From: a virus
DNA length: 64,000 nucleotides
UHGV virus genome: UHGV-0211740
Strand: one strand, 5' to 3'
Every line of letters starts with the position of its first letter. Positions within the stretch are counted from its first letter, which is position 1. The notes beneath the pieces were generated by a model. It saw only the letters and a program-made list of their open reading frames with translations. It was not told the origin of the DNA and did not search any database. Position numbers and translations under genes: made by a program. Positions 160 to 43,459 of the stretch are shown in pieces.

Positions 160-1044
160 ATGCCAAGTAATATAGTTGATGAAAAAGACCTGTACAAGCC
201 TCAAGAGGTTAAATCTCCAAAGGCTGAAAAGGCAGAGCAGCAAACTGAAAGTGATGTAAAGTATACTATGTTTGTCAGCGGTCTTAACTACGGCGGTCGC
301 AATATAGAGATGAAGGGTAAAAACTTCACTAACGACCTTGCCATTATCTTCGATCAGGTTGAGAATTATTCTTTTAAACAAACGGTCGATAAGTCAGATT
401 TTGCAGTAGAAGATAAGTCTACCCTGTCAGATCATGCAGTGGTTAAGGATGGGGTATTTTCTTTCACTGGTCGGGTAAATACATCCCCTCATATAATTTA
501 TGAGCAAAACTACATTGATAGAAACACTGACTCCAAAAACCCTGCAGCGTCTATGCGACCTGGTGCGGCATTAGAAGCTTTGACAGAGATCATTAATAAG
601 CGACAGTTGGTTTCTTTAGTTACCGAGGAGAGACTCCTTGAAAACTACATTATAACCAGTCTTTCTGCCAACAAGTCTGTTGGTGAAGGTGCTGCAATGG
701 TGTTTGATGTGGAACTTACAGAATTCCGCACATTCTACTTGAACAAGGTTGTTAATGCAACTGTATACAGCAATCCTAAGAAGGTCGGCAAGACTCAGCA
801 AAAAGGTGCTGTCAACGATTGCAAGAATGGTAGTAACGTAGGTAACAAGAGAGACACAGGGGCATTTGCAGACACCGCGTCCACAAATGCTGCAGAAGAG
901 TGGCAGCCATACAAATCTATGATGTGGACAGATGAAAACGGTGTTACCCAATCGGCTGCAGATTGGTACTATCAGGAATATGGAAGACCTTCCACCATAG
1001 TCCCATCTGAGCAGGGAAACTACAACAAAGTTAACGGAAAATAA
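160..1044 (+). CDS. hypothetical virion-associated protein
   Basis: ORF track 133..1044; in-frame ATG at 160 preceded by GGAGAGG; first gene of a same-strand structural block. Confidence 0.55.
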   Translation: MPSNIVDEKDLYKPQEVKSPKAEKAEQQTESDVKYTMFVSGLNYGGRNIEMKGKNFTNDLAIIFDQVENYSFKQTVDKSDFAVEDKSTLSDHAVVKDGVFSFTGRVNTSPHIIYEQNYIDRNTDSKNPAASMRPGAALEALTEIINKRQLVSLVTEERLLENYIITSLSANKSVGEGAAMVFDVELTEFRTFYLNKVVNATVYSNPKKVGKTQQKGAVNDCKNGSNVGNKRDTGAFADTASTNAAEEWQPYKSMMWTDENGVTQSAADWYYQEYGRPSTIVPSEQGNYNKVNGK

Positions 1045-1056
1045 GGGGAGCGTGTA

Positions 1057-1437
1057 ATGGAGCTTAAAGATTGGTGCGTAATCACCTTTGTGTGGGACAT
1101 TGACGGCTTTCCTGATCAGACTATGCGTGTGGTTTTAGATAATGAAACCTATGAAATGCGTATGCAATGGAACGAGAGGGATGAGTCCTGGTGGTTATCT
1201 CTTGGTCCAGTAGGCGACAGTCCTTTAGTAACCAGAAAAGTAACAGCTTGTCAAGACATTTTAGACGGGCTGCATTACAGAGACGATTTACCGAAGGGTA
1301 GGCTAATGGCTCTGTCGTTTAAAGACGATCAATATTGGGGCAGGGTTGGAAGATACAACCTTGGGGCCAGATCTGAGCTACAACTTGTATACGGCACCCC
1401 GGTTGATCTTTACAAGGAACAGCAAGGGTTAGACTAA
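1057..1437 (+). CDS. hypothetical protein
   Basis: ORF track; AAGGGGAG RBS; tight packing. Confidence 0.55.
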   Translation: MELKDWCVITFVWDIDGFPDQTMRVVLDNETYEMRMQWNERDESWWLSLGPVGDSPLVTRKVTACQDILDGLHYRDDLPKGRLMALSFKDDQYWGRVGRYNLGARSELQLVYGTPVDLYKEQQGLD

Positions 1438-2441
1438 TGGCAGAGTATAGACGTAGAACATGGCGATTGTTGTTTGGTCGCCCTGTAGAACATGGCGGAA
1501 AATCAAAAACCAATATCCCAAAATCTGTTGAAAAGAAAGGAGAAAGTGATTCTGGAGTTTATGAGGTTAGCTCAGACACAGGTGCTGCCAATATAGAGTT
1601 CGACATACAAAAGGATAACACCAAAGAGCCAAACAAAGGCTATGTGATAGTTTACAACCTGTCTGACGATACGGTTAACTATCTGGACATGCACCAAGCT
1701 GATGCTCTTGCAGTGATGTTTGAGGCTGGCTATGATAATGAGAACCAGTTGATATTCTCAGGAACTGTAGAGTTTGTTGAAGATAGGTGGGAAGGCCCGA
1801 CTAGGAAAACTAAGTTCATCTTCGGAGACGGCACTGAGAATATCATTAAGTGCCAAAGCACCAGATCTTATCAGAAAGGCACACCTCTGGACTCTGTGCT
1901 TAATGACCTCCTGAAGGATATGAACTTACCAAAAGGTAGGGTTGTTGGTTTTGGAAACCAAACTTTGCAATACTCTATGGCTTTCTCTGGGAACACTGCA
2001 GAGAACCTCCGCAGATTTGCAAGACTGACCAACTCAACATTTAGCGTTCAGGATGGGGCTTTGTATTGGACCAAGGTTGGGAAAAGGTTCAAGGACTCTG
2101 TATTTGAAATCAGTGCAGAGTCTGGGATGCACGGATCGCCCACCCCTAAAAACCCAGAGCCTGCGAGAAAACGAAAAGCTAAAGCTGCTGCAAAAGGCGG
2201 TTCAACATCTAAAAAGAAAAAGAAAAACCCGAAAGAGGACGTTGGTCTTACCGTGACAACATGTCTTAACGGGGCTATCCTCCCAGAGTCAACCATCTAT
2301 CTTAAGAGCAGGCAATATACAGGCTTCTACAAGGTGATCACAGTGCACCACAAGGGCACCATCGAAGGAGGTGATTACATTACAGAGCTTGGACTTGGGG
2401 AAGCTGTTGGTGGGGTTGTTGACAAAACTGAGGAGGTATAA
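1437..2441 (+). CDS. hypothetical structural protein with lysine-rich segment
   Basis: ORF track; start overlaps upstream stop (TAATG); KRKAKAAAKGGSTSKKKKK tract. Confidence 0.55.
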   Translation: MAEYRRRTWRLLFGRPVEHGGKSKTNIPKSVEKKGESDSGVYEVSSDTGAANIEFDIQKDNTKEPNKGYVIVYNLSDDTVNYLDMHQADALAVMFEAGYDNENQLIFSGTVEFVEDRWEGPTRKTKFIFGDGTENIIKCQSTRSYQKGTPLDSVLNDLLKDMNLPKGRVVGFGNQTLQYSMAFSGNTAENLRRFARLTNSTFSVQDGALYWTKVGKRFKDSVFEISAESGMHGSPTPKNPEPARKRKAKAAAKGGSTSKKKKKNPKEDVGLTVTTCLNGAILPESTIYLKSRQYTGFYKVITVHHKGTIEGGDYITELGLGEAVGGVVDKTEEV

Positions 2442-3118
2442 TGGCAATAAACAGGAAAGATGCTGCTGTAAGATCCTTTATAGAAAAGATAATGAGGGAC
2501 TACCACACCAGTATTAGAGCCAGAGTTGTCAGTGTAGATTACAGTATCCCCTCTGCAGCCGTGCAGCCAATAGCCGAAACCATGTTTGACGATGGGGATG
2601 TAGAAAGGTACCCTCTTATCTATGATGTCCCAATTCAGGTGATGTCTGCAAATGGTGGTAAGGCAAGGTTAACACTTCCTATTAAAGCTGGTGATGTTGT
2701 AGGGCTGCAATTTTCAGAGAGAAATGAAAACAATAACGATGACCAGCAAACCCACGGCCTGTTTCCAGGATGGGCTATCACCTCTGTTCATTCTGACTCT
2801 AATGCCTTGCAGATCGACCCTGATAATGTAGAGTTATGGAACGACAGGGTTTATTTTAAACTAACACCTTCTGGTGATTTTGAGCTTCAAACACCGGGCG
2901 GAACATTACGGTGCGACAGTAGCGGGGAGTTTTCTTTTACTAACGGAGCTGCCAATTTACGCGCTGCCGTAGATGGGAATATTAGAATGAATGGTGCCAC
3001 AATAGATCCGTCAGGTAGAATCATAACGGCTGCTGGTGTGGATTTGGATTCATTCTATGCAGAATATAAAGGTCATACTCACTCTTGCCCTGATGGCGAG
3101 ACCAGTGGACCGCACTAA
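2441..3118 (+). CDS. putative baseplate or tail spike-like protein
   Basis: ORF track; GAGGAGG RBS; position ahead of baseplate-like gene; assignment tentative. Confidence 0.4.
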   Translation: MAINRKDAAVRSFIEKIMRDYHTSIRARVVSVDYSIPSAAVQPIAETMFDDGDVERYPLIYDVPIQVMSANGGKARLTLPIKAGDVVGLQFSERNENNNDDQQTHGLFPGWAITSVHSDSNALQIDPDNVELWNDRVYFKLTPSGDFELQTPGGTLRCDSSGEFSFTNGAANLRAAVDGNIRMNGATIDPSGRIITAAGVDLDSFYAEYKGHTHSCPDGETSGPH

Positions 3119-3130
3119 TAGAGGGCTTGC

Positions 3131-3847
3131 ATGGCTACGCTTTATAGTGATATATTGATGGACCCGCAGACAGGCGATTTGGCAATAGACAACGGTCTTG
3201 AGTTGATAGATTCAAACCAAATAAGTCTGCGCCAGCGCCTGTGGATGAGGTTTAACACATGGAAGGGGAGCTGGTACTTTGACGAGTTGTTTGGCTTCCC
3301 TTATATGGACTTTCTTAGTAAGAAGGTCATGAAGACTGTTCTTGATAACAAGATTATGGAGGTGGCAAGACAGGAGCCTGATGTGCTAAACATCATAAAC
3401 TTCCAGTCTACCATGGATCGAAGATCGAGAACATACCAGGCGTTCTTTGAGGTTGTTACCAAGGAGAACGAAATTGTAAGACTGGCCTTCGTAGGTCTTG
3501 ATCAGTTCACTTACCCACAACCTGATGATGGAGCAACTTCTCTTTGTGATGATGAAGGCTGGATTAAGTGGGCTAATAAGCTGTACTACCTAATCAACTT
3601 CAGACTACCGAGGACAGGTGATGCCACATGGTGGAACCAGTATGCTGGCCCTGAGATGGAAAACCCGATCCCTGTAGGCTCTTTGTTGACTCAGGATAAA
3701 GATCTGCTGATGACTGAGGCAGAACAAACCATTAACCGTAATACCTGGACGCTTGCTCCAGATGAGCGCGAATACTCTGGCGTTATTGCTACCTCTAATG
3801 ATGAGGCTATTGCCAACCAGTCTGGTCGTGCTATTGATGTTAACTAA
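3131..3847 (+). CDS. baseplate wedge-like protein (gp25/GPW-like N-terminal motif)
   Basis: N-terminal LYSDI...QRLWMRFNTWKGSWYFDELFGFPY resembles the gp25/GPW signature as recalled; no search run. Confidence 0.4.
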   Translation: MATLYSDILMDPQTGDLAIDNGLELIDSNQISLRQRLWMRFNTWKGSWYFDELFGFPYMDFLSKKVMKTVLDNKIMEVARQEPDVLNIINFQSTMDRRSRTYQAFFEVVTKENEIVRLAFVGLDQFTYPQPDDGATSLCDDEGWIKWANKLYYLINFRLPRTGDATWWNQYAGPEMENPIPVGSLLTQDKDLLMTEAEQTINRNTWTLAPDEREYSGVIATSNDEAIANQSGRAIDVN

Positions 3848-3856
3848 GGAGAAATC

Positions 3857-4525
3857 ATGGCTGTAGCTTATCCTACAATACCAATTCCAGATCTTGAAGA
3901 TGCAGAAACAGTCTTGAGCGATGACTTCTTGGTTGTCAACCAGACTGATGGGACAAGAAAGGCTAAGATTGATGATGTTGTCAATGATCTTAGTATTACT
4001 AAGATAGTTTATTTCACAGAGGGTGGTTATCTTAAAAGTAAGAAAGATTTTGCCTACGATCCTGAGACTAAGCGCTACTACACGTGGAACGGGGATTATC
4101 CTAAAATAATCCTTCCTGATTCCACTGTGGAGGGGGCAGGAGGGGTATCTGCAAAAGCCTGGTCTGTTTTTGGAGAGCTTGCTGCAACTTCTTCAGGCAG
4201 GATAGTTGACTACGGGTCTATCGGCGGTCAGTTGGACATGGATCTTAACGTTGCAGACACATTTAAAGTTAGGCTTACTTCGAATACCACAATCTCTTTT
4301 GAAAATCAAACAGAGGGGCTTAACGAGGTGGCAAGAACTGTGACTGTATGCATTACCCAGTCCTCTGGCGGCAACAAGGTTTATTGGCCTGACAATGTTA
4401 AATGGGCCTACGGAAGAGATCCTATCCTAACATTCACAGCTGGTGCAACAGACATTTTCAAGTTAGAAACCTACGATAATGGACTAACTTGGTACGGGGC
4501 ACTGATTATAGCAGGAGCTATCTAA
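3857..4525 (+). CDS. tail fibre/spike protein with shared N-terminal anchor domain
   Basis: AAGGAG RBS; N-terminal ~70 aa homologous to N-terminus of the 7160 gene (DDxLVVxQxDxTRxxKIxDVV ... FxEGG ... DFAY). Confidence 0.5.
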   Translation: MAVAYPTIPIPDLEDAETVLSDDFLVVNQTDGTRKAKIDDVVNDLSITKIVYFTEGGYLKSKKDFAYDPETKRYYTWNGDYPKIILPDSTVEGAGGVSAKAWSVFGELAATSSGRIVDYGSIGGQLDMDLNVADTFKVRLTSNTTISFENQTEGLNEVARTVTVCITQSSGGNKVYWPDNVKWAYGRDPILTFTAGATDIFKLETYDNGLTWYGALIIAGAI

Positions 4526-4526
4526 G

Positions 4527-7124
4527 ATGCGTATTCAACACAACATTGATAACGTATTTCAGATGATTGAGGGGCACAGGAAGTGCCTCGATAATAACAC
4601 AGGTATTACCAACACCACTACACAAAATAAGCTAGTAAACCCTGATGGTCTTATAGCTGCAGGGTGGGCAGGTAATAAGATAAACAATGATTGGGCAATG
4701 CATGAGGCCCAAGCTGTGTTGATTCTGGGGTACATTGAAGCATATAGGGCATCGAAAAGCGATTTCTATCTGGACAGGGCAAAAGAGGCTTGGGAAGCTT
4801 ACAATAGTCATCTCTTGGGAGTATACGCAGTAGAAAGTAAAATGCAAAGACTATCCCACTACCCGTTATCTACTGATGGGGTTCCATCCCATGGTGGGTT
4901 TAAAGATGTGGTGGTGTCTTTTAACAAAGGTAGAGGAAAAATTCCGGCGGGATCTCCGACATGGGGTGAATACCTGGATAAAGCATTCCAGGCGTATAAC
5001 GGTGTGTTGGGAAGAAACACAGTTGATGCGGATGTTTACGGCGGCACAGATGCTAACCCCAACTGGACAACATCCGGATTAAGTTGGTGGGTTGAATGGT
5101 ATATAGCGTGGGACGGTAACCGCTATTGGGCCAACGGCAGCATAGCTGACAGTGGGCACACATCTGCAGAGTTTGGCACAATACAGCTGCAAGATAAGGG
5201 CGTTACAGGTAGCCATAAGGTAACCTACTGTGTGAGATTGCCTCAAGAGCAAGGTGGATCTGTGATACCTTCAGGATCTCCAGTAGTTGTAAACCCTATA
5301 AACGTGGTTGCAGATAATCAGGCTCCGGAATTGGACGGAGAAGAGATGTGGTGTGACGCTTGTTATCAACTCTACTCTTTGACAGGCGAGGAGAAGTATT
5401 ACACTGCGTTTAAACAGTCTTACGACAAGCTGCTTAATTTCAGTGATATAAACGCCTACGACAAACTGTTTAGAAAGACCACGTTGATTAAGGCACCGTT
5501 TACAGATGGTACTTGTCTTGTTGCAGGAACAGTTCCTGCTATGAGCAGGGACAGTGACGGATATATCAACTTTAGAATGAACGCACGCCAGCCCTGCGAG
5601 ATAATTCAAAAAGGTACCACCTACAAAATAGGTAGAGATACTGAAATTGTTATGAATTTCGGGGGAGAAGGTGTTCTGTTCCAGCCTCATTTCATCATTA
5701 ACGATGGCAACAATAATAAAAAACAATACAGAATAGGGGTTCCTTTTGGTGCGGCAGATGTAACAGAGGTAGTTGCCAAAGTTACTGATTTCGTCGAGGT
5801 GGTGGGGAAGGATGGTAACCCGTACCTCCTGCCTGAGGAGGAGAACATTGTCGTAACTGGTGGCGCTAGTGTTAGTATGCAATACGCTACTGACATTTAC
5901 AACCACTCTGACAACTTCTCCCGTTGCAATATAGCAAAAGGTAAAGTAACTTTCAATTTCGGAAGAGAGATTTCTTTAAACTCAGTGACTTACCGATCAG
6001 ATGATGAAATGGTAAGAGTCAAATTCCTTGACAAAGATCGTTGGTTATGGTATGCTGATCTATATGCTACTAACGGACAATGGGTAACAGAAACTCTTAC
6101 TTTAGGGGATTTCAAACTAGACCCAACACAACCTCATCACACCGAGGAGGAGATTAAGCCTTTCTTTGCTAACACCAAAGGTATTACCTCTGTAGATTTC
6201 AGTCTGAGCGATAGACAGATAGGAAATGGCCTGTTTGATCTGTATTGCGTCAATACGCTGCCTCAATTCTATATTGCAGATATGGATGCTTACCTAATCT
6301 GGTTTAGTGTATGGATGGCAAGCAAGACAGAATCGGTTGCTAAAGTTGGCGATTGCTATGTCAGAAACTACAAGCAAGGGGCATACAGACACACTCCAGG
6401 TGTGTTCCCTGCAGGGAAGGTGATAGATAAGGAAAGTTATCTTCTGGAAGAAAAGCCAAATTGGCCCTACCCAGGCATGCAATACCCAGCGGTATATTGT
6501 ATGGGCGCGGAAAACATAGATCGCCTCAGGTTGTCAAATACAATTGGGTTTATGTACGACTCTCAAGTTTGGTATAATAACACATTTAAAACCGAAGGAC
6601 CAGTCGCATCCCGCTACGTGTGGCAGAGAGGTAATGAGGGATTGTCTGGTTGGTGGGAGATGGTAGATAACTCTAAACTCCAGTCAAGATCTTTTGTTGC
6701 TGCGTGCCGCACAATATATGAGCTCAAGAAACATAAAGAGCCTGTTGATGAAAAACTTTTCCTGTTCTGCCAGAGATGGGCATGGTTCCTCAACAGATTC
6801 CAATCATCTCATTCTGGAAATCTTCCCACAGACTTTAACACCTCTGGAGGATATTCTTATCAAGACAGAGGAGACAGGATGTGGGTGGTCGGTGAGTGGC
6901 TTGCAGGTTGCTGCTGGTTAGGCTTGTGTGGGTATTCAGAGACAATACCTCAAATAGATATTGTTGTAGAAGCTTGCATGAAGCTGCTGCAAAAGCACCA
7001 CTTCATTAATGGCGATAATGTTTTAAACGGCTGCTGGGCAGTTTCTGATCCGGTAGGCTATCACTCTGGCGAAATCCTTCGCGGTCTAGGCCTTTATGCT
7101 CAATACCGTGGATTGTACCTTTAA
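4527..7124 (+). CDS. large virion/tail protein, function unknown
   Basis: 865-aa ORF, Trp/Tyr/Gly-rich; GGAG RBS; sits between two anchor-domain proteins. Confidence 0.55.
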   Translation: MRIQHNIDNVFQMIEGHRKCLDNNTGITNTTTQNKLVNPDGLIAAGWAGNKINNDWAMHEAQAVLILGYIEAYRASKSDFYLDRAKEAWEAYNSHLLGVYAVESKMQRLSHYPLSTDGVPSHGGFKDVVVSFNKGRGKIPAGSPTWGEYLDKAFQAYNGVLGRNTVDADVYGGTDANPNWTTSGLSWWVEWYIAWDGNRYWANGSIADSGHTSAEFGTIQLQDKGVTGSHKVTYCVRLPQEQGGSVIPSGSPVVVNPINVVADNQAPELDGEEMWCDACYQLYSLTGEEKYYTAFKQSYDKLLNFSDINAYDKLFRKTTLIKAPFTDGTCLVAGTVPAMSRDSDGYINFRMNARQPCEIIQKGTTYKIGRDTEIVMNFGGEGVLFQPHFIINDGNNNKKQYRIGVPFGAADVTEVVAKVTDFVEVVGKDGNPYLLPEEENIVVTGGASVSMQYATDIYNHSDNFSRCNIAKGKVTFNFGREISLNSVTYRSDDEMVRVKFLDKDRWLWYADLYATNGQWVTETLTLGDFKLDPTQPHHTEEEIKPFFANTKGITSVDFSLSDRQIGNGLFDLYCVNTLPQFYIADMDAYLIWFSVWMASKTESVAKVGDCYVRNYKQGAYRHTPGVFPAGKVIDKESYLLEEKPNWPYPGMQYPAVYCMGAENIDRLRLSNTIGFMYDSQVWYNNTFKTEGPVASRYVWQRGNEGLSGWWEMVDNSKLQSRSFVAACRTIYELKKHKEPVDEKLFLFCQRWAWFLNRFQSSHSGNLPTDFNTSGGYSYQDRGDRMWVVGEWLAGCCWLGLCGYSETIPQIDIVVEACMKLLQKHHFINGDNVLNGCWAVSDPVGYHSGEILRGLGLYAQYRGLYL

Positions 7125-7127
7125 CAT

Positions 7128-7147
7128 AAGGGGGCTGTTTGCCCCCT
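7128..7147 (+). promoter_or_regulatory. intergenic GC hairpin (GGGGGC-loop-GCCCCC)
   Basis: Inverted repeat between stop of 4527 gene and RBS of 7160 gene; no T-tract. Confidence 0.35.
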
Positions 7148-7159
7148 TCAGGAGAAAGA

Positions 7160-9640
7160 ATGGCTGATATTAAAGTTGTCAGAATTGAATCTCTTCCTGC
7201 CACCACAGCAGTGGCAGAGGATGATTACCTGGTTGTTCAACAACCAGACCTGACCCGTCGTGTAAAAATTGGCGATGTTGTCCATGTGGATGGGACTGTT
7301 TCTCATGTGATCTCCTTTAAGGAAGGTGGTAAGTTAAATGGCCCAATGGATTTTGCCTACTTCGAAGAGGAAGACCTCTACCTGCGTTGGAAGGGCGAAT
7401 TCCCGCACACTGTTCCTGCACTGTCCTCACCATACTCTGATGGCGGTATTACTGATGCCACATGGATGGTATATACAGACCCTTCCTTAAGAGAGGAGCT
7501 GGAATCAACAATTGGCGCATCCATGATTATGACAGCCGAAGGGCAGTCTGTCCAGGATGTAATGGATGTTACAGTTAAGACAGCCAACGATGCTAAAGCG
7601 CTTGCACAGCGGGTGGATTTTGGCACTGTGCACACAGTGGGTGATGTTATTCACCTGGATAATTTTGTTGGCCCTGCAGTTATTGAAGAGGGAAGAACCA
7701 CCAACTATCCTTCTGAAGCCACTGGTGAAAAATTTCTGAACGGTGTGGTATCTCGTCGTGATACTACAACTGTTGATGGCATTTTCCGTGGCGCTACCTC
7801 TGGAGCTATGTACACCATTGCAGTAACCAACGGTGTCGCAACAACAAAAAGAATAGCCCTTCGTGATGAATTTAAACGCCTGGAGGCAAGCAACCCAACA
7901 AGAACAGTTATCCGTGCTGGAGATGATTTAAACACGGCAGGGTACTTGCAGCTTGATGCAACAGGCCGTTGGGGTATGTGGAACCAACAAACAGCTTCGT
8001 GGCAACCTCTTGCTATAGAGCAAGGCGGTACAGGGGCCAGAGATGCCGCAGGTGCACGTATTAACTTAGGGGCTTTCTATAAGCAACGTGCAGCCCTTGA
8101 GCCAAATTTCAATATCAATAACTTGACTGGTAATCAGGATGGTGTATACTACCAGCCGATGACTGCTTATGCAACCGAGGCAAATGGTTACCCTGCAGGT
8201 TCTGGTGCTGGTCACTTGATTGTTTGGCAGAACAATGCTAACGGCGGTACAGGTTGTCGTCAGGAATACTACCCGTTCTCTAACGTGGATGTTTGGTATC
8301 TGAGAACCTACCAAGCCAACACAAACCAGTGGACTGCATGGCAGCCGATGGTCAGACCTCGTAACGATGATACCTTTAGAGCGCACATCGGTCTTGGTTC
8401 CAGAAATTCCCCTACCTTCGGGCACCTTTACCTGTCTCAAAGCTCTGCGGATGTTAAGTCAGCATCAGGTATTGTTCACGGAGACAAATACAGTGCTGAC
8501 GGCGTTCTTGAGCATGGGTATAGAATTTACTCCGAGGTAAGAAACGACAATAAGGCTTGGTTGACAATCCACCTCCACAAAGGTGCAAAAGGGTCTGAAA
8601 CTCATAGATATTTAGGCTTCCGTGAAGACGGTGTGTTAGATTGTCCTAAATATATGCAGGTTGGTGATCTGAACGGTCAGCTGGCAAACTGGGGACTTGG
8701 AGAATGGATCCGCAGTTCAGGAGCAGAAAGAGGTTTCTGGGGATCCAAGAAAGCCGCCAAGATGGTCATCTGGGATGGCGGTATGGATGAGCAAGGTGAA
8801 GGCACTCTGGAATGGGGTGTTTATAACAACCGCAAGGCTAAATGGGAACCTTTGCCGATAGGTTGCGGTGGCACCAGTGCTAGGACTGTGGGAGATGCCC
8901 AGGCACAATTCAGAATCCCTCTTGCAGCAGGTGTCAGACCATATATAAACCTGCCTAGAACTGCAGCGATGCAGGATGGCAAGTATTATCCGATTATTGT
9001 CAGAACAGATCCTAACCATGCGCCAACAATCGGGACAGATTTAACCATCGTTACCAGATCTTCTTCTGGCAGCGATCCTATGAACTGTGCTACACTGCAG
9101 TGCCACTACAGAACTGGTGGCTGGACTGATCGTGGTGACTTCTTTACCGGGTCGATAAATTTCTACCAGAAGGAGAAGGCGATACTTGGGTGCGTTGCTC
9201 CAACAAGGGGTAAACAAGAGTATGTTGCGTTCTATGTAGAGGCACGTGCCTTCCCTGTAACAGTGTATGCCAGCGCTGACGTAATAGAGGTGTCAACAAG
9301 AGAGGCAGACTGGCAGGTTGGCAATGTAACAGACAACCAAGACGGTGTTAAATTCTGTGCACCTCTAGCATCTGCTGACTTGAATCTAGCAATCAAAGGT
9401 GACAATGTAACAAACACTCGACCTCTGGCTGAATTTAATGGTGTAACAGGTTTCTACACCAATCAGTGGATGTATCGTGGGTCTTCTGACAGATATTTCC
9501 TGTCCAATAAAACAGAGTTTGGCCTGACAGAGTTATGGTGCAACGGTCTTAACTACATCTGCCCAGGTAGTCAGACTACTCGAAAAGCACTGTTCTCTAA
9601 CGCAGGGTTCCAGGCTGATAGGAAAGAACAGAGGATCTGA
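7160..9640 (+). CDS. tail fibre/tailspike protein, N-terminal and central part
   Basis: ORF track 7139..9640; ATG at 7160 after AGGAGAAA; N-terminal anchor domain paralogous to 3857 gene; ends at TGA 9638-9640. Confidence 0.65.
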   Translation: MADIKVVRIESLPATTAVAEDDYLVVQQPDLTRRVKIGDVVHVDGTVSHVISFKEGGKLNGPMDFAYFEEEDLYLRWKGEFPHTVPALSSPYSDGGITDATWMVYTDPSLREELESTIGASMIMTAEGQSVQDVMDVTVKTANDAKALAQRVDFGTVHTVGDVIHLDNFVGPAVIEEGRTTNYPSEATGEKFLNGVVSRRDTTTVDGIFRGATSGAMYTIAVTNGVATTKRIALRDEFKRLEASNPTRTVIRAGDDLNTAGYLQLDATGRWGMWNQQTASWQPLAIEQGGTGARDAAGARINLGAFYKQRAALEPNFNINNLTGNQDGVYYQPMTAYATEANGYPAGSGAGHLIVWQNNANGGTGCRQEYYPFSNVDVWYLRTYQANTNQWTAWQPMVRPRNDDTFRAHIGLGSRNSPTFGHLYLSQSSADVKSASGIVHGDKYSADGVLEHGYRIYSEVRNDNKAWLTIHLHKGAKGSETHRYLGFREDGVLDCPKYMQVGDLNGQLANWGLGEWIRSSGAERGFWGSKKAAKMVIWDGGMDEQGEGTLEWGVYNNRKAKWEPLPIGCGGTSARTVGDAQAQFRIPLAAGVRPYINLPRTAAMQDGKYYPIIVRTDPNHAPTIGTDLTIVTRSSSGSDPMNCATLQCHYRTGGWTDRGDFFTGSINFYQKEKAILGCVAPTRGKQEYVAFYVEARAFPVTVYASADVIEVSTREADWQVGNVTDNQDGVKFCAPLASADLNLAIKGDNVTNTRPLAEFNGVTGFYTNQWMYRGSSDRYFLSNKTEFGLTELWCNGLNYICPGSQTTRKALFSNAGFQADRKEQRI

Positions 9641-10959
9641 TCAACAACACCTTTACCTCTAAATGTGGCAATGGTGCCGCGCTGAAAGGTCAGGCAGAGT
9701 TCAGATCTACTCCAGAGGCTGGTCAGGTTATTGTTCGTGATGTTGTAGGCACAGCCCATAGATTCTACAATTTCAACAAAGATGGCACTTTCTCAGCCCC
9801 TGGTGGTTTTGTATGCCACACGGGTGGTGACTGGAACAACCAGTTTGGGCCTAACAACCCGTCAAAAATAATGGCTGGTAATGTCAATGGGCCTGAGGGT
9901 TCGATGGTCGTTGGTGGATTGTCTGTGGCGTTTTCTGGAAACTATGCTTTCCAAATGGCTGGTCGCCTTGATCGATTATACACCAGGTCTATCGAGGGAG
10001 GTAACCATAGGGCGTGGAACAAAGTCATACAACACAGAGGCCAGGGTCTGGGGACAGACGATCTTAATAGCTATGATGGAACTCGTGACGGTATCTATCA
10101 TCAGGGTGCAAATTCTGACGCACTCACATCCCGTCATTATCCTGCTCCGTACGCTGGTACGCTGATTGTTTATCAGAACACTGCTAACCAGTTGACAGGG
10201 TGTGTGCAGGAGTATATAACCTATTTTGGTGACAGGTATACTCGTGCTGGCAACACGAATGGTGAAGATTTTGTTTGGGAAGAGTGGAGACACGATGCGG
10301 GTAAGGGAATCCAGTTAAGACCTAATTACACTTTTGGTGAAACCAGTAATCAACTGGAAATTCATGTCGGTGCTAATGGTCTTCCCTCCAACGCAGATGG
10401 CTTACCTAAGAATGATGCTGTACTCCATTATTGGGGTAACGGCAGCACAGGGGATCGTCCAAACGTGTTAGAGTTTAAGGTTCGTGACGAGTCTCAAGCA
10501 AATTGGGTATGGCATTGCGGTACCTTGCCAGATAACTCAAGATATCTTTCTGTAAATGGTGCTGTGAATTGCACATCTGTCAATCAGAGTTCTGACAGAG
10601 ACCTGAAAGATAACATATCTGTTATTCCTGATGCGTTAGAAGCTATCCGGAAGATGAAGGGTTATACTTACACTCTTAAAGAGAACGGTATGCCTTATGC
10701 AGGTGTTATAGCACAAGAGGTGCTTGAAGCGCTGCCGGAAGCAGTTAGCTCTTTCGTGCAAAGAAAGGAAATCCCAAACCCTGATCAAGATGGAACTCCT
10801 TTGATAACAGAGGAAAGATTCTACAGCGTGGATTACGCAGCCGTAACAGGCTTGCTTGTCCAGGTTTGCAGGGAACAGGATGATAAAATAACCGCCCTTG
10901 AGGAGCAGGTTAAAAAATTGACAGAGGTTGTTACTGGGTTGCAAGAGAAATTGAAGTAA
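9622..10959 (+). CDS. tail fibre C-terminal part with intramolecular chaperone (peptidase S74-like) domain; -1 frame relative to 7160..9640
   Basis: Frame open from 9622 with no start codon before ATG 9871 and no RBS there; C-terminus has SDRDLKDNI...GVIAQEV...coiled coil. Confidence 0.55.
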   Translation, partial: ERTEDLINNTFTSKCGNGAALKGQAEFRSTPEAGQVIVRDVVGTAHRFYNFNKDGTFSAPGGFVCHTGGDWNNQFGPNNPSKIMAGNVNGPEGSMVVGGLSVAFSGNYAFQMAGRLDRLYTRSIEGGNHRAWNKVIQHRGQGLGTDDLNSYDGTRDGIYHQGANSDALTSRHYPAPYAGTLIVYQNTANQLTGCVQEYITYFGDRYTRAGNTNGEDFVWEEWRHDAGKGIQLRPNYTFGETSNQLEIHVGANGLPSNADGLPKNDAVLHYWGNGSTGDRPNVLEFKVRDESQANWVWHCGTLPDNSRYLSVNGAVNCTSVNQSSDRDLKDNISVIPDALEAIRKMKGYTYTLKENGMPYAGVIAQEVLEALPEAVSSFVQRKEIPNPDQDGTPLITEERFYSVDYAAVTGLLVQVCREQDDKITALEEQVKKLTEVVTGLQEKLK

Positions 10960-10966
10960 CTGTTTT

Positions 10967-10996
10967 GCCCTCGCTTCGGCGGGGGCTTTTTGTTTG
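10967..10996 (+). terminator. rho-independent terminator
   Basis: 8-bp stem with TTCG loop followed by TTTTTGTTTG. Confidence 0.6.
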
Positions 10997-10998
10997 TA

Positions 10999-11027
10999 TT
11001 GCGTATTAACTTAAAATCTGGTAAAAT
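10999..11027 (+). promoter_or_regulatory. putative promoter with extended -10 (TGG TAAAAT)
   Basis: TAAAAT preceded by TG; weak -35 TTGCGT at 17-nt spacing. Confidence 0.35.
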
Positions 11028-11058
11028 AACTATCATACTTGTTTAACCTGGAGGCACA

Positions 11059-11649
11059 ATGTTTTTATGGGAAAGGCCTAGATACCTTCCAGATATTAGA
11101 TTAGAGTTGCTGGCAGATATTGTCACGTTTAAAAGCCCGTTTACAGGTAAAACGCAAAAAGTAACCTATGCCACACCTAACTGGAAAGGCACTTTGACGG
11201 TTTCCAATATTAGCGAATCGCAGTTGCTTGAGCTCAAGAGTTTTGTTGACCAAGTTTACAAAGATGGGAATATCTTTCTTATCAAAACTTATGGTCATTC
11301 GGTGACAGCCAATGAGCCAATCGCTCTCGGACCGACTGGTAACGACGATTTTTTGAAGACGGTTGGTTGGGAGCCGAACAGGGATATAGCCAGAGCTGGG
11401 GATAAGATATCTGTTAATGATGAGTTGAAAGTGGTAACAGCTCCAGTACGTAGTGATGGTGTTGGGGCCGCTGTTATAAACATATCTCCAAGACTTAGGA
11501 AACCTATTGCAGCAGGGGATACTATGAAGATAATAACTCAATCCCCGAAGGGTAGGTTTCATATCAGAGATATTTATAAAATTAAGCAAAAAGTTGATGC
11601 TATGCAAAAAGGCGATAATATAGTTATCAATTTCTTTGAGGATTTCTAA
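11059..11649 (+). CDS. tail tip module protein (distal tail/minor tail-like, tentative)
   Basis: GGAGG RBS; first of three small genes before the J-like gene. Confidence 0.5.
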   Translation: MFLWERPRYLPDIRLELLADIVTFKSPFTGKTQKVTYATPNWKGTLTVSNISESQLLELKSFVDQVYKDGNIFLIKTYGHSVTANEPIALGPTGNDDFLKTVGWEPNRDIARAGDKISVNDELKVVTAPVRSDGVGAAVINISPRLRKPIAAGDTMKIITQSPKGRFHIRDIYKIKQKVDAMQKGDNIVINFFEDF

Positions 11650-11650
11650 G

Positions 11651-12202
11651 ATGATCAGAGCTCCATTAGATAATTTATTTATTGAAAATATAGAGCTTGA
11701 TGGCGTTGAGATCTTAATTGCTGCAAAACTGGAGCTACCAACAGGAACTGTCAGGGTGTGCTCAGGCACTGGTGTTGTAGTAATTGAAGGGCAACATTTT
11801 ATAGGTATAGGTGGATCAGCTACATTAACTGCTGTGTCGGAGAAAGATGCCACCAACTTCGGATCTGTGGTAGCAACATTGAACGGGTTTGACCCTAAAT
11901 ATGTTGGTGATTTGTTGAAGACTGAGTATTCAGGTTGTCGTGCCACGTTATACATTACAGCCATGGAGAATGGTCTGCCAGTAACCACTAATGGCTTGTT
12001 TGACGGACTTATAACAGATATGGCTATTCAGACAGGAGAGAATAGTGCTCTATCTATATCCATATCTTCAATCTTCAACAGCTGGCTAAGAGGGTTCCCT
12101 TATCGCTACACAGAAGAAAGTCATAGCTCAAGAAACGACAACGATAGATTTTTTAAATATGTGGATCAGGTGGCTAGTCGCCCGATCATTTGGGAGGTTT
12201 AA
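11651..12202 (+). CDS. tail tip module protein
   Basis: ORF track 11636..12202; ATG 11651 right after upstream stop with GAGGA RBS. Confidence 0.5.
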   Translation: MIRAPLDNLFIENIELDGVEILIAAKLELPTGTVRVCSGTGVVVIEGQHFIGIGGSATLTAVSEKDATNFGSVVATLNGFDPKYVGDLLKTEYSGCRATLYITAMENGLPVTTNGLFDGLITDMAIQTGENSALSISISSIFNSWLRGFPYRYTEESHSSRNDNDRFFKYVDQVASRPIIWEV

Positions 12203-33867: not shown

Positions 33868-34193
33868 ACCTTCTCGTTGATAAATTTACGGGCGGTTTGG
33901 TGAGTTGTTTCTGCTGTCTTCAGGATGATATTAATTTTATCGTCAAGATCATTCATCTCAGCAGTTAATTCAGGAATCTCTCCGGCATGCATGGTGAAAT
34001 CATACATAGACATACCCAGGATCTCGTTGATTCGGCGGTTGCATTCTGCAGCACGCTGGTTCATTTTCCAGGCTAACACTAAAGCCTCTTGTGTAGCCTC
34101 CAGTGCAAAGTCTAATACGTCAGCTTCTTCTTTCGTCATCTCAGTCTCTCTTGTTGTATTTGTTGGTAGGTGCATGAACACCTTATATCTCAC
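33864..34193 (-). CDS. hypothetical protein
   Basis: ORF track; true start may be the internal ATG at 34139. Confidence 0.4.
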   Translation of the reverse strand: MRYKVFMHLPTNTTRETEMTKEEADVLDFALEATQEALVLAWKMNQRAAECNRRINEILGMSMYDFTMHAGEIPELTAEMNDLDDKINIILKTAETTHQTARKFINEKV

Positions 34194-34195
34194 TT

Positions 34196-34768
34196 TTATT
34201 CAAACTGCAATAGCAAGTCCACCACCGCACTAGGCCTGTCAACAAATTCCCCAGGTCCACATGCCCATAGAGGGTATCCGTCAACATACCTCCATATCCA
34301 ACCTGCAGTGTGGAGCTCAAGCAGGGCAGTGCCGTCCTTACTGTCAACCACTCTTTCCCACAGTGTTGGGCAGCGAAGCTTGAGAATCGGGTCCCCGCCC
34401 TTATACCCGTCCATGTAGATACCCATTGCAAAGTTCAGCATCATCTTTTTGTGCATAGATCTTTTACTGAGGGTGCTCATCACTTCCTCTTTGTGAATGC
34501 TTGTAAGCTTCTCCTTAGCTATCCGTAGATCGTTGCAACCATTGTTCAGCAGATCTTCCAGGCACTTGATCCGAAGGTCGTGAATGTCTTTGTCGTGTAC
34601 CGTTGGCACAGGGTCGTAGCGATATAGCACTGTTGATACAAGGTTGCTAGGGTGTGGGTCTGATAGCAACCCATACCCCCAGTACTCTTCTGTATCTGAA
34701 AGGACAAGACACCCAATGTCTCTGTCAAGCTTTCCTGTGTTGTAAGCCACATTGACCGCCATGATCAT
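34196..34768 (-). CDS. hypothetical protein
   Basis: ORF track; overlaps neighbours by 4 nt. Confidence 0.5.
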   Translation of the reverse strand: MIMAVNVAYNTGKLDRDIGCLVLSDTEEYWGYGLLSDPHPSNLVSTVLYRYDPVPTVHDKDIHDLRIKCLEDLLNNGCNDLRIAKEKLTSIHKEEVMSTLSKRSMHKKMMLNFAMGIYMDGYKGGDPILKLRCPTLWERVVDSKDGTALLELHTAGWIWRYVDGYPLWACGPGEFVDRPSAVVDLLLQFE

Positions 34769-42527: not shown

Positions 42528-42908
42528 ATGGCTAAAGTAGGTAAGCGGGGAAACTACTTGGTGGTATTGACCGAGGAGCCGGAGAAGGAGTACGAATGCA
42601 GCTCCACTTGCGTGATCGATATCCGAGAAAAAGATGTAGATGAAATCTGGTTTAAAATATTGGACGCTTGCGACAGCAGTGACTATTTCTTCATCTATGT
42701 CAACGATAAAGCGGGGTTCTTCCATGACGATGGAGAGTTACCGTATGAAATCTATGAACTTGTAGAGGCTTGCCATCGTGGAGATGCGGAGTTGTTTGGT
42801 CTACGGCTGAAAAGCGGTAAGTTCTTCTACCAAGACGAATGCATGAATCTTCACAACTTCGTAGAGGGAACTTGCAACGATGGAGAGATTCTGGCACACT
42901 ACGACTAA
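42528..42908 (+). CDS. hypothetical protein
   Basis: ORF track; GAGGAGG RBS. Confidence 0.5.
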   Translation: MAKVGKRGNYLVVLTEEPEKEYECSSTCVIDIREKDVDEIWFKILDACDSSDYFFIYVNDKAGFFHDDGELPYEIYELVEACHRGDAELFGLRLKSGKFFYQDECMNLHNFVEGTCNDGEILAHYD

Positions 42909-42922
42909 TTTCTAAGACCACC

Positions 42923-42950
42923 CCCCGCTTCGGCGGGGATTTTCTATTTG
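42923..42950 (+). terminator. rho-independent terminator
   Basis: CCCCGC-TTCG-GCGGGG then ATTTTCTATTT. Confidence 0.55.
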
Positions 42951-42958
42951 GAGTTATT

Positions 42959-43459
42959 GTGAAAATTAAAATCTTTGCTATTATTTTGAGCGCATTTTTA
43001 TCGCTGCCTGTTGTTGCAGCACCAAAACAAAAAGTATATCACACCTGCAAGCCATCGGATACTAAGGAAAACATTCTAGCATGCAATATCTACAGGGAGG
43101 CTAGAGGGGATGGCACGATGGGTATGCTGGCATCAGGGTTTGCCACACTAAACAGGAAATCTCACCCCAAATACCCGGACACCATAAGAAAGATTGTCTA
43201 CCAACCTAACCAGTTTTCGTGGACAAACCACGGCAAAACTTTTAAGGTGATAGAAAAAGATTCATGGGATCACGCTAAAAGTCTTGCAAAGATGCTTCTA
43301 AAGGTCTATAATAACAACCATGTTGCATACATGGCTATGGATATAACAGGTGGAGCAACACACTATCATACAACAAAAGTACGACCGAAATGGGCAAAAA
43401 AGATGCAGAGGACAGCCCAATTCGGGAGTCATATCTACTACAAGGAGCGCAATAAATGA
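42959..43459 (+). CDS. SleB/CwlJ-type cell wall hydrolase with N-terminal signal peptide
   Basis: ORF track 42839..43459; GTG 42959 after GGAG; signal-like KIKIFAIILSAFLSLPVVAAP; motifs NIYREARGDG...LNR...QFSW. Confidence 0.65.
   Translation: MKIKIFAIILSAFLSLPVVAAPKQKVYHTCKPSDTKENILACNIYREARGDGTMGMLASGFATLNRKSHPKYPDTIRKIVYQPNQFSWTNHGKTFKVIEKDSWDHAKSLAKMLLKVYNNNHVAYMAMDITGGATHYHTTKVRPKWAKKMQRTAQFGSHIYYKERNK

What the first reader, a model, noticed from the sequence alone, without database searches (positions are those of the whole stretch)
9600..9880. Tail fibre needs a -1 frame change to reach its C-terminal intramolecular chaperone domain
ORF 7160..9640 ends at TGA 9638-9640. The -1 frame is open from 9622 and encodes 83 glycine-rich codons with no ATG, GTG or TTG before ATG 9871, which has no RBS. 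That frame ends in an S74-type chaperone domain (SDRDLKDNI...GVIAQEV), normally the C-terminus of a fibre or tailspike. The overlap (AGGAAAGAACAGAGGATCTGA) has no classical slippery heptamer, so a programmed frameshift, a real indel or a sequencing error are all possible.
Basis: partly seen in the sequence, partly recalled or inferred. Interest (0 to 1): 0.6.

Follow-up and report, generated by a model that had tools for sequence, protein, structure and literature searches.

The report
Frameshift-broken phage tail fibre gene
One of the several tail-fibre genes of an uncultured rV5-like coliphage from a gut virome has been cut in two by a small, recent deletion-plus-substitution mutation; it is an ordinary gene-breaking mutation in a dispensable fibre, not a programmed frameshift.

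Summary
ORF 7160..9640 stops at TGA 9638-40. The -1 frame is open from 9622 and has no ATG, GTG or TTG before ATG 9871. It ends in a Peptidase_S74 chaperone domain.

The window is a Vequintavirus (rV5-like) metagenome-assembled genome, and the gene is the orthologue of rV5 gp041 and Bas54 bas54_0027. Most relatives examined carry one uninterrupted ORF of 1264-1274 aa. A 99.5%-identical intact copy (L024, 1266 aa) differs from the window gene by 20 substitutions and one gap. That gap is a missing C after 9617. Three substitutions sit within the same 9 nt, and one of them makes TAG 9619-21 in the downstream frame.

- The overlap has no slippery heptamer, no homopolymer run and no stable downstream RNA structure.
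- Only 1 of 97 long ORFs is broken relative to the closest phage record.
- Independent Logan assemblies of two SRA runs carry the same junction, so a sequencing error is unlikely.
- Orthologues are broken at other sites in other assemblies, and a transposon screen reports that bas54_0027 tolerates disruption on E. coli K-12.

Verdict: a real, recent, lineage-specific truncating mutation. Low interest.

The parts
7160..9640 (+). Truncated 5' part of the lateral tail fibre gene. It encodes 826 aa: 819 native residues plus a 7-residue frameshifted tail DRKEQRI, then TGA. The N-terminal Tail_spike_N anchor domain is at aa 46-103.
   Evidence: The exact protein is DAU99061.1, 'MAG TPA: tailspike protein'.
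9617..9625 (+). The lesion. The 10 nt CGTCGGAAGG of the 99.5%-identical intact allele are replaced by the 9 nt ATAGGAAAG. This is loss of one C, G>A at 9618, C>A at 9620 (TCG>TAG in the old frame) and G>A at 9625 (GGA>AGA).
   Evidence: It is the only gap in a 10.6-kb alignment with L024.
9616..9621 (+). TGA and TAG in the downstream frame. They set the 5' limit of any frame change that could restore the protein.
9638..9640 (+). Premature TGA stop reached by the shifted ORF1 frame.
9622..10959 (+). Stranded 3' part of the gene: 445 codons, still fully open, identical to the intact allele P0010 except G823R. It holds the second knob-like repeat, the distal tip and the chaperone domain.
10591..10746 (+). 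Peptidase_S74 / intramolecular chaperone core (aa 324-375 of the downstream frame). It includes SDRDLK, with Ser and Lys spaced as in the Ser-Lys autoproteolytic site.
   Evidence: 53.2 bits, cut-off 22; sequence; T5 pb1 Ser1264 analogy from PMC4690869.
9871..9873 (+). First canonical start codon in the downstream frame. It has no Shine-Dalgarno motif. It starts the 362-aa ORF annotated as DAU99030.1, 'endosialidase chaperone'.
9895..9906 (+). GAGGG-N4-ATG: an internal Met codon with a fortuitous Shine-Dalgarno-like motif. It is a possible start of a 351-aa C-terminal fragment.
   Evidence: (the Logan gene call is 351 aa).
10967..10986 (+). Intrinsic-terminator-like hairpin with a T-run directly after the downstream frame. 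The transcription unit therefore ends after the whole original gene, not after ORF1.
   Evidence: The same feature is annotated as a terminator in phage Murica.

Best explanation
The gene is the orthologue of rV5 gp041, Murica gp040 and Bas54 bas54_0027, one of the large lateral tail fibres of rV5-like myoviruses. In this lineage a single small complex mutation replaced 10 nt with 9 nt at 9617-9625, shifting the reading frame. Translation from ATG 7160 now ends at TGA 9638 after 826 residues. The product keeps the N-terminal virion-anchor domain and the proximal and middle parts of the fibre. It lacks the distal 445 residues: the second knob repeat, the distal tip and the S74 intramolecular chaperone. 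These steps are shown. From what is known of S74-type fibres, the C-terminal chaperone nucleates trimerisation and the receptor-binding tip lies just before it. I therefore infer that this fibre is non-functional or absent from the virion. I also infer that the phage survives because its other fibre sets suffice on its current host. The event is recent, because the stranded 3' part has no further stops or lineage-specific amino-acid changes.
For: (1) Most relatives have one ORF. These include EduardKellenberger, Murica, VB-EcoM-WM, rV5, PDX, YN3 and slur16, 25 full-length cluster representatives carrying both PF18668 and PF13884, and seven further contigs.
(2) L024 encodes the intact 1266-aa P0004. 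Its gene differs from the window gene by 20 substitutions plus one gap, and that gap is the only one in 10.6 kb of alignment. Of those substitutions, 14 of the 17 outside the lesion are synonymous.
(3) The conceptual fusion of the two frames is 1266 aa. It differs from P0004 or P0010 at only 3 residues outside the lesion.
(4) Both frames hit phrog_6578 collinearly: profile positions 35-750, then up to 1202.
(5) The Logan assembly of SRR7892471 is 100% identical over 10.5 kb. The Logan assembly of SRR7892473 carries the same junction.
(6) Only 1 of 97 ORFs of at least 100 aa in the closest phage record is split in the window.
(7) There is no slippery heptamer or homopolymer run, and the RNA fold z-score is +0.41.
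(8) The orthologue bas54_0027 is listed among fibre genes that tolerate disruptive insertions on E. coli K-12 in preprint 10.1101/2025.11.20.689424.
(9) Orthologues are broken at other sites in other assemblies.
Against: No reads could be inspected, so a minority intact allele or a systematic sequencing artefact cannot be excluded. The two runs have neighbouring accession numbers and may not be fully independent samples. Three substitutions next to the deletion are far more than the background divergence predicts (P about 1.5e-5). A complex mutation, an unseen donor sequence or an artefact must be invoked, and none was identified: the only other occurrence is a 9-mer at 6218. The perfectly preserved 445-codon downstream frame fits a recent event, but it would also fit continued use of that frame.
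Confidence: 0.85

Rival explanations
1. Sequencing or assembly artefact: the phage really has the intact gene, and the delins exists only in the assembled sequence.
For: The window is a metagenome-assembled genome. The lesion is an odd cluster of four differences in 9 nt. The allele was found nowhere else: IMG/VR, JGI metagenomes and GTDB genomes gave no match.
Against: Two SRA runs assembled by a different pipeline (Logan) give the identical junction. A de Bruijn contig can only contain k-mers present in reads, and the whole 9-nt lesion fits inside one k-mer (inference). The site is not a homopolymer. The rest of the 64 kb shows no other split ORF relative to OX460980, and there is no other gap in 10.6 kb relative to L024.
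Confidence: 0.07
2. Programmed -1 ribosomal frameshift or other recoding within 9622-9637 that yields full-length fibre, alone or together with the 826-aa product.
For: The two frames overlap in the right geometry, and the downstream frame is intact for 445 codons. The substitutions create AGG AAA in the ORF1 frame, a rare Arg codon followed by Lys AAA. This is a weak, speculative point.
Against: The overlap has no X XXY YYZ heptamer and no run of 4 or more identical bases. There is no significant RNA structure downstream (z = +0.41). The arrangement is absent from every relative, including one 99.5% identical, so it has no evolutionary history as a signal. A +1 shift leads into the wrong frame.
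Confidence: 0.02
3. Functional two-protein arrangement. The C-terminal part is made separately, from ATG 9904 with its GAGG motif or by reinitiation at CTG 9637 overlapping the TGA. It then either chaperones or assembles with the 826-aa part in trans, or acts as a free receptor-binding trimer.
For: GAGGG-N4-ATG at 9895-9906 lies in the downstream frame, and a gene caller predicts a 351-aa product. CTGA overlap is present at 9637-9640. The downstream frame is undamaged. Lateral fibres of other phages can be made of one or of several polypeptides (PMC8594841).
Against: The same internal ATG and GAGG are present in intact relatives, so they were not selected for this role (P0004 and P0010 share the residues). 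CTG sits only 1 nt after the SD-like AGAGGA. The S74 domain is described as an intramolecular chaperone that folds the chain it is attached to (PMC4690869). The break does not lie at the chaperone boundary but 320 residues before it. The arrangement is unique to this lineage.
Confidence: 0.05

Closest known systems
Phage lambda PaPa stf frameshift (Hendrix & Duda 1992; recalled from my own knowledge, not checked with tools)
   Same: A single-base frameshift splits a side tail fibre gene into two adjacent ORFs. The phage remains viable because the fibre is accessory.
   Different: The lambda lesion arose in a laboratory stock. Here the allele comes from faecal virome assemblies, and the lesion is a delins with three adjacent substitutions rather than a plain 1-nt indel.
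rV5 gp041 / Murica gp040 / EduardKellenberger bas59_0026 / MaxBurger bas54_0027 lateral tail fibre (phrog_6578)
   Same: Orthologous gene in the same synteny: 865-aa glycosidase-type fibre upstream and 196-aa tail protein downstream. It has the same N-terminal Tail_spike_N and C-terminal Peptidase_S74 domains, and nucleotide identity is 85-93%.
   Different: Those genes are single ORFs of 1266-1274 aa. The window copy is interrupted at codon 820.
S74-type C-terminal intramolecular chaperone fibres and tailspikes (K1F endosialidase, T5 pb1)
   Same: The downstream frame carries the PF13884 domain with the Ser...Lys (SDRDLK) motif at the expected cleavage position, directly after the distal domain.
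   Different: In the window this domain is no longer translationally linked to the fibre shaft.
Programmed -1 frameshifts in phage tail genes (lambda G/GT-type tail assembly chaperones, dnaX-type A AAA AAG)
   Same: Only the geometry matches: two overlapping ORFs with the second in the -1 frame and lacking its own start.
   Different: There is no slippery heptamer, no stimulator and no conservation. Close relatives encode one ORF.

Membership tests
Programmed -1 ribosomal frameshift site | Slippery heptamer X XXY YYZ (or A AAG-type tetramer) in the upstream frame inside the overlap | tested here: not met
   none of the heptamers from 9589 to 9643 qualifies. The longest run in the overlap is AAA, preceded by G.
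Programmed -1 ribosomal frameshift site | Stimulatory RNA structure a few nt downstream of the shift site | tested here: not met
   the MFE of 9600-9740 is no better than shuffles (z = +0.41; 130 of 200 shuffles fold at least as well).
Programmed -1 ribosomal frameshift site | Two-frame arrangement conserved among relatives | tested here: not met
   relatives carry a single ORF at this site, including L024 at 99.5% nt identity.
Programmed -1 ribosomal frameshift site | Trans-frame protein product detected | not testable with these tools
   Needs proteomics or a reporter assay.
Gene disrupted by a lineage-specific indel (pseudogene or truncated allele) | Uninterrupted orthologue in close relatives, and a discrete indel not divisible by 3 at the frame break | tested here: met
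   there is one gap (C missing after 9617) against the intact 1266-aa allele. Searches show the same against eight other relatives.
Gene disrupted by a lineage-specific indel (pseudogene or truncated allele) | The lesion is present in the underlying data, not just in one assembly | tested here: inconclusive
   the junction is identical in Logan contigs of SRR7892471 and SRR7892473. The reads themselves could not be inspected.
rV5 gp041-type lateral tail fibre (phrog_6578) | Collinear match of the whole coding region to the family profile, and conserved synteny | tested here: met
   ORF1 matches profile 35-750 (E = 0), and the downstream frame matches up to 1202 (E = 6e-166). Synteny is shown.
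Peptidase_S74 / C-terminal intramolecular chaperone domain | Pfam PF13884 match above the gathering score at the C-terminus | tested here: met
   53.2 bits against 22, at aa 324-375 of the 445-aa downstream frame.
Peptidase_S74 / C-terminal intramolecular chaperone domain | Catalytic Ser with Lys five residues downstream | tested here: met
   SDRDLK is read directly. Its assignment as the dyad rests on the analogy with T5 pb1 Ser1264 and K1F (PMC4690869) and on my own knowledge.
Peptidase_S74 / C-terminal intramolecular chaperone domain | Covalent linkage to the fibre it folds, followed by autoproteolytic release | tested here: not met
   In the window the domain is separated from the shaft by the frame break. 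Cleavage itself is not testable here.

The most novel reading that the evidence does not exclude
The break is not a dead-end accident but one instance of recurrent, possibly adaptive, switching-off of this particular fibre in natural rV5-like populations. Independent frame-breaking lesions at other sites of the same orthologue were seen in at least four other assemblies. These are 1-nt deletions at codons ~154 and ~177, a 55-nt duplication in the isolate A51.2, and an internal duplication. Shedding one 'blade' of the multi-fibre apparatus might be selected on hosts where it is useless or harmful. The intact downstream frame would allow easy reversion.
Probability: 0.12. Interest if true: 0.4.

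Novelty: already known. Interest (0 to 1): 0.1.

Why it matters
It matters mainly for annotation. The two GenBank proteins DAU99061.1 ('tailspike protein') and DAU99030.1 ('endosialidase chaperone') are fragments of one disrupted gene. They should not be read as a two-component fibre or as a recoding site. Together with the other broken orthologues found here, this adds a natural example to the experimental report that this fibre is dispensable in rV5-like phages. That is of modest interest for host-range work and for choosing therapeutic phages.

Tried and rejected
1. Programmed frameshift was rejected after the heptamer and homopolymer scan, the RNA fold and comparison with relatives.
2. A prfB-like +1 shift at ATC TGA preceded by the SD-like AGAGGA was rejected, because +1 leads into the third frame, which stops after 15 codons.
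3. A templated origin of the 9-nt lesion was tested. I searched the window for a donor on either strand. No 18-mer within 3 mismatches turned up, and only one chance 9-mer at 6218.
4. I searched for the broken junction elsewhere. The exact pattern is absent from IMG/VR, JGI metagenomes and GTDB genomes.
5. I searched for closer intact relatives by a DNA pattern from the variable region. Nothing was found in the three collections, and the search for related loci in IMG/VR gave only relatives of 79% identity or less.
I got round this through the exact 196-aa neighbouring protein, which yielded L024.
7. The literature on whether the S74 domain works in trans could not be settled. PMC2666599 is not held, and the K1F DMS preprint was uninformative on this point.
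8. No structure prediction was run. It would not bear on the frame question.
Full report
**Observation**

The ORF that begins MADIKVV at ATG 7160 ends at TGA 9638-9640. The frame one base behind it contains TGA 9616-18 and TAG 9619-21, and is then open from 9622 to the stop at 10957-59. In that frame there is no ATG, GTG or TTG for 83 codons (11 of them Gly) until ATG 9871. The 20 nt before ATG 9871 carry no Shine-Dalgarno-like motif. The downstream frame matches Pfam Peptidase_S74 at 53.2 bits (cut-off 22). The upstream ORF matches the Tail_spike_N anchor domain. Between 9589 and 9643 there is no X XXY YYZ heptamer in the ORF1 frame, and no run of four identical bases in the overlap.

**What the locus is**

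The window is an rV5-like (Vequintavirus) phage genome. It is 97% identical over 25 kb to Vequintavirinae sp. EcoIv14a_Aya (OX460980.1), and about 91% identical to more than 100 E. coli phage records. The exact proteins of the two ORFs are in GenBank. They are DAU99061.1 ('MAG TPA: tailspike protein [Caudoviricetes sp.]') and DAU99030.1 ('MAG TPA: endosialidase chaperone'), so the window comes from a metagenome-assembled genome.

The gene lies between an 865-aa glycosidase-type lateral fibre gene and a 196-aa tail protein gene. This is exactly the position of rV5 gp041, Murica gp040, EduardKellenberger bas59_0026 and MaxBurger bas54_0027. Both halves hit the same PHROG tail-fibre profile, phrog_6578 (1210 positions), collinearly. 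ORF1 covers positions 35-750 and the downstream frame runs up to position 1202. A terminator-like hairpin follows the downstream frame at 10967-86, and none lies between the halves. The hairpin is annotated as a terminator in Murica.

**Relatives have a single ORF**

- In the annotated relatives the gene is one ORF of 3801-3819 nt: EduardKellenberger, Murica, VB-EcoM-WM, rV5, PDX, YN3, slur16 and MaxBurger.
- A protein search returned 25 cluster representatives of 1265-1274 aa that carry both PF18668 and PF13884.
- Members of the window protein's own 90% cluster are 1264-1270 aa and read straight through...NAGFQAASEGTEDLINNTFTSKCGNGA....
- Fusing the two window frames gives 1266 aa. That differs from P0004 or P0010 (both 1266 aa) at only three residues outside the junction.

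**The lesion**

DNA alignments with eight relatives place a one-base gap in the window after 9617, flanked by two window-specific substitutions.

The best comparator is L024, a 78.6-kb Logan contig of ERR2368555. I reached it through the exact 196-aa neighbouring protein, and it encodes P0004. Across the 3801-nt gene it differs from the window by 20 substitutions and one gap. That gap is the only one in the whole 10.6-kb alignment, which is 98.85% identical.

| Region | Differences from L024 |
|---|---|
| Upstream of the lesion | 13 substitutions: 11 synonymous, plus A188T and N671K |
| Downstream of the lesion | 4 substitutions: 3 synonymous, plus K1033T (the window residue T is the common one) |
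| Lesion, 9617-9625 | loss of C; G>A at 9618; C>A at 9620 (TCG Ser > TAG); G>A at 9625 (GGA Gly > AGA Arg) |

In effect the 10 nt CGTCGGAAGG became the 9 nt ATAGGAAAG. With 20 substitutions in 3800 nt, three falling in a given 9-nt span has a probability of about 1.5e-5. The lesion is therefore best treated as one complex mutation. I found no donor sequence for it in the window.

Because TAG 9619-21 lies in the downstream frame, simply restoring the lost base would not reopen the gene. Any rescuing frame change would have to occur within the 16 nt from 9622 to 9637.

**Real or artefact**

- The Logan assembly of SRR7892471 is 100% identical to window 1160-11671.
- The Logan assembly of a second run, SRR7892473, carries the same junction and differs only at a ragged contig end.
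- Of the 97 ORFs of at least 100 aa in OX460980 over the homologous 64 kb, only this gene is split in the window.
- The site is not a homopolymer.

These points make an assembly or platform error unlikely. I could not look at reads, and the two runs have neighbouring accession numbers. Runs of this accession series are described as human gut viromes from Cameroon in PMC12862488. The two runs themselves are not listed there, so their origin is an inference. The broken junction was not found in IMG/VR, JGI metagenomes or GTDB genomes.

**Programmed frameshift**

None of the defining features is met.

- There is no slippery heptamer or homopolymer run.
- The 141 nt around and after the site fold no better than shuffled sequence (z = +0.41).
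- The two-frame arrangement is absent from relatives at every distance, down to 0.5% divergence.
- A +1 shift leads into the third frame, which closes after 15 codons.

**Consequence (inferred)**

The 826-aa product keeps the anchor domain and the proximal and middle parts of the fibre. It loses the second knob-like repeat, the variable distal tip and the S74 chaperone. In T5 pb1 and the K1F endosialidase this C-terminal domain is an intramolecular chaperone. It trimerises first, folds the preceding domain and is then cut off at a serine (PMC4690869). The window's SDRDLK motif fits that site. Loss of linkage should therefore abolish this fibre.

rV5-like phages encode several lateral fibre sets (PMC8594841). 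A transposon-insertion study of Bas54 lists bas54_0027, the orthologue, among the fibre genes that tolerate disruption on E. coli K-12. The same study reports that some fibres are conditionally essential on clinical strains (preprint 10.1101/2025.11.20.689424).

Orthologues broken at other positions turned up in other assemblies:

- a 1-nt deletion in a T run at codon ~154 (L025 and L026);
- a 1-nt deletion in a G run at codon ~177 (L027);
- a ~55-nt tandem duplication in the isolate A51.2 (L011);
- an internal duplication (L029).

The downstream 445 codons of the window have acquired no stop and no lineage-specific amino-acid change other than G823R. This points to a recent event.

**Residual alternatives**

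An internal ATG at 9904 with GAGGG four to five nt upstream could give a 351-aa C-terminal fragment. CTG 9637 overlaps the TGA. The same sequences occur in intact relatives, and nothing indicates they are used.

**Verdict**

This is an ordinary, recent truncating mutation of an accessory tail fibre gene in a virome-derived rV5-like phage, comparable to the lambda PaPa stf frameshift (recalled from my own knowledge). Novelty: already known kind. Interest: low, about 0.1.

Noticed in passing
L025 2034-5845; L026; L027 1917-5728: Orthologues of the same fibre gene are split by other 1-nt deletions. In L025 and L026 (two runs), GATTTTGG became GATTTGG at codon ~154, giving 159 + 1114 aa. In L027, GAGGGAAG became GAGGAAG at codon ~177, giving 185 + 1075 aa.
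   Followed up: partly
L011 (Escherichia phage A51.2, ON286973.1) 2760-2900: In this cultured isolate the same gene is annotated as two CDS (748 + 484 aa). The cause is a ~55-nt tandem duplication that encodes NQDGVKFVAPLQSADLNL twice and shifts the frame.
   Followed up: partly
L029 (ERZ28584414 scaffold_53) 504-5296: The region for residues ~283-575 of the fibre is represented twice, with a frame change between the copies. This is either an internal duplication or an assembly artefact.
   Followed up: no
proteins P0090, P0089, P0091: The fibre family shows modular variants. One is a 617-aa form that looks like an in-frame deletion between the two knob-like repeats (GYPAGSGAG.LIV.QN.AN... and YPAPYAGTLIVYQNTAN...). 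Others are 827-aa forms with a different C-terminal module lacking the S74 domain.
   Followed up: no
window 9530-9593: This is a mosaic boundary. Many relatives align to the window only from about 9530, 9580 or 9593 onward. A recombination junction between the variable middle part and the conserved linker therefore lies just upstream of the lesion.
   Followed up: partly
window 33925-34233 and 42839-43459: These two window ORFs (102 and 206 aa) lie in two different frames in the closest phage record, OX460980.1. The break is on the OX460980 side or is a real difference.
   Followed up: no
GenBank MG065644-MG065690: Eighteen records named 'Campylobacter phage', with host given as C. jejuni, are 88-91% identical to this rV5-like coliphage genome. 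The host label looks doubtful.
   Followed up: no
window 4527-7124 (cluster 3): The 90% cluster of the 865-aa upstream fibre protein contains an 88-aa partial protein labelled Enterococcus faecium (HAP9005252.1, 637-bp contig). This is probably contamination of that assembly.
   Followed up: no
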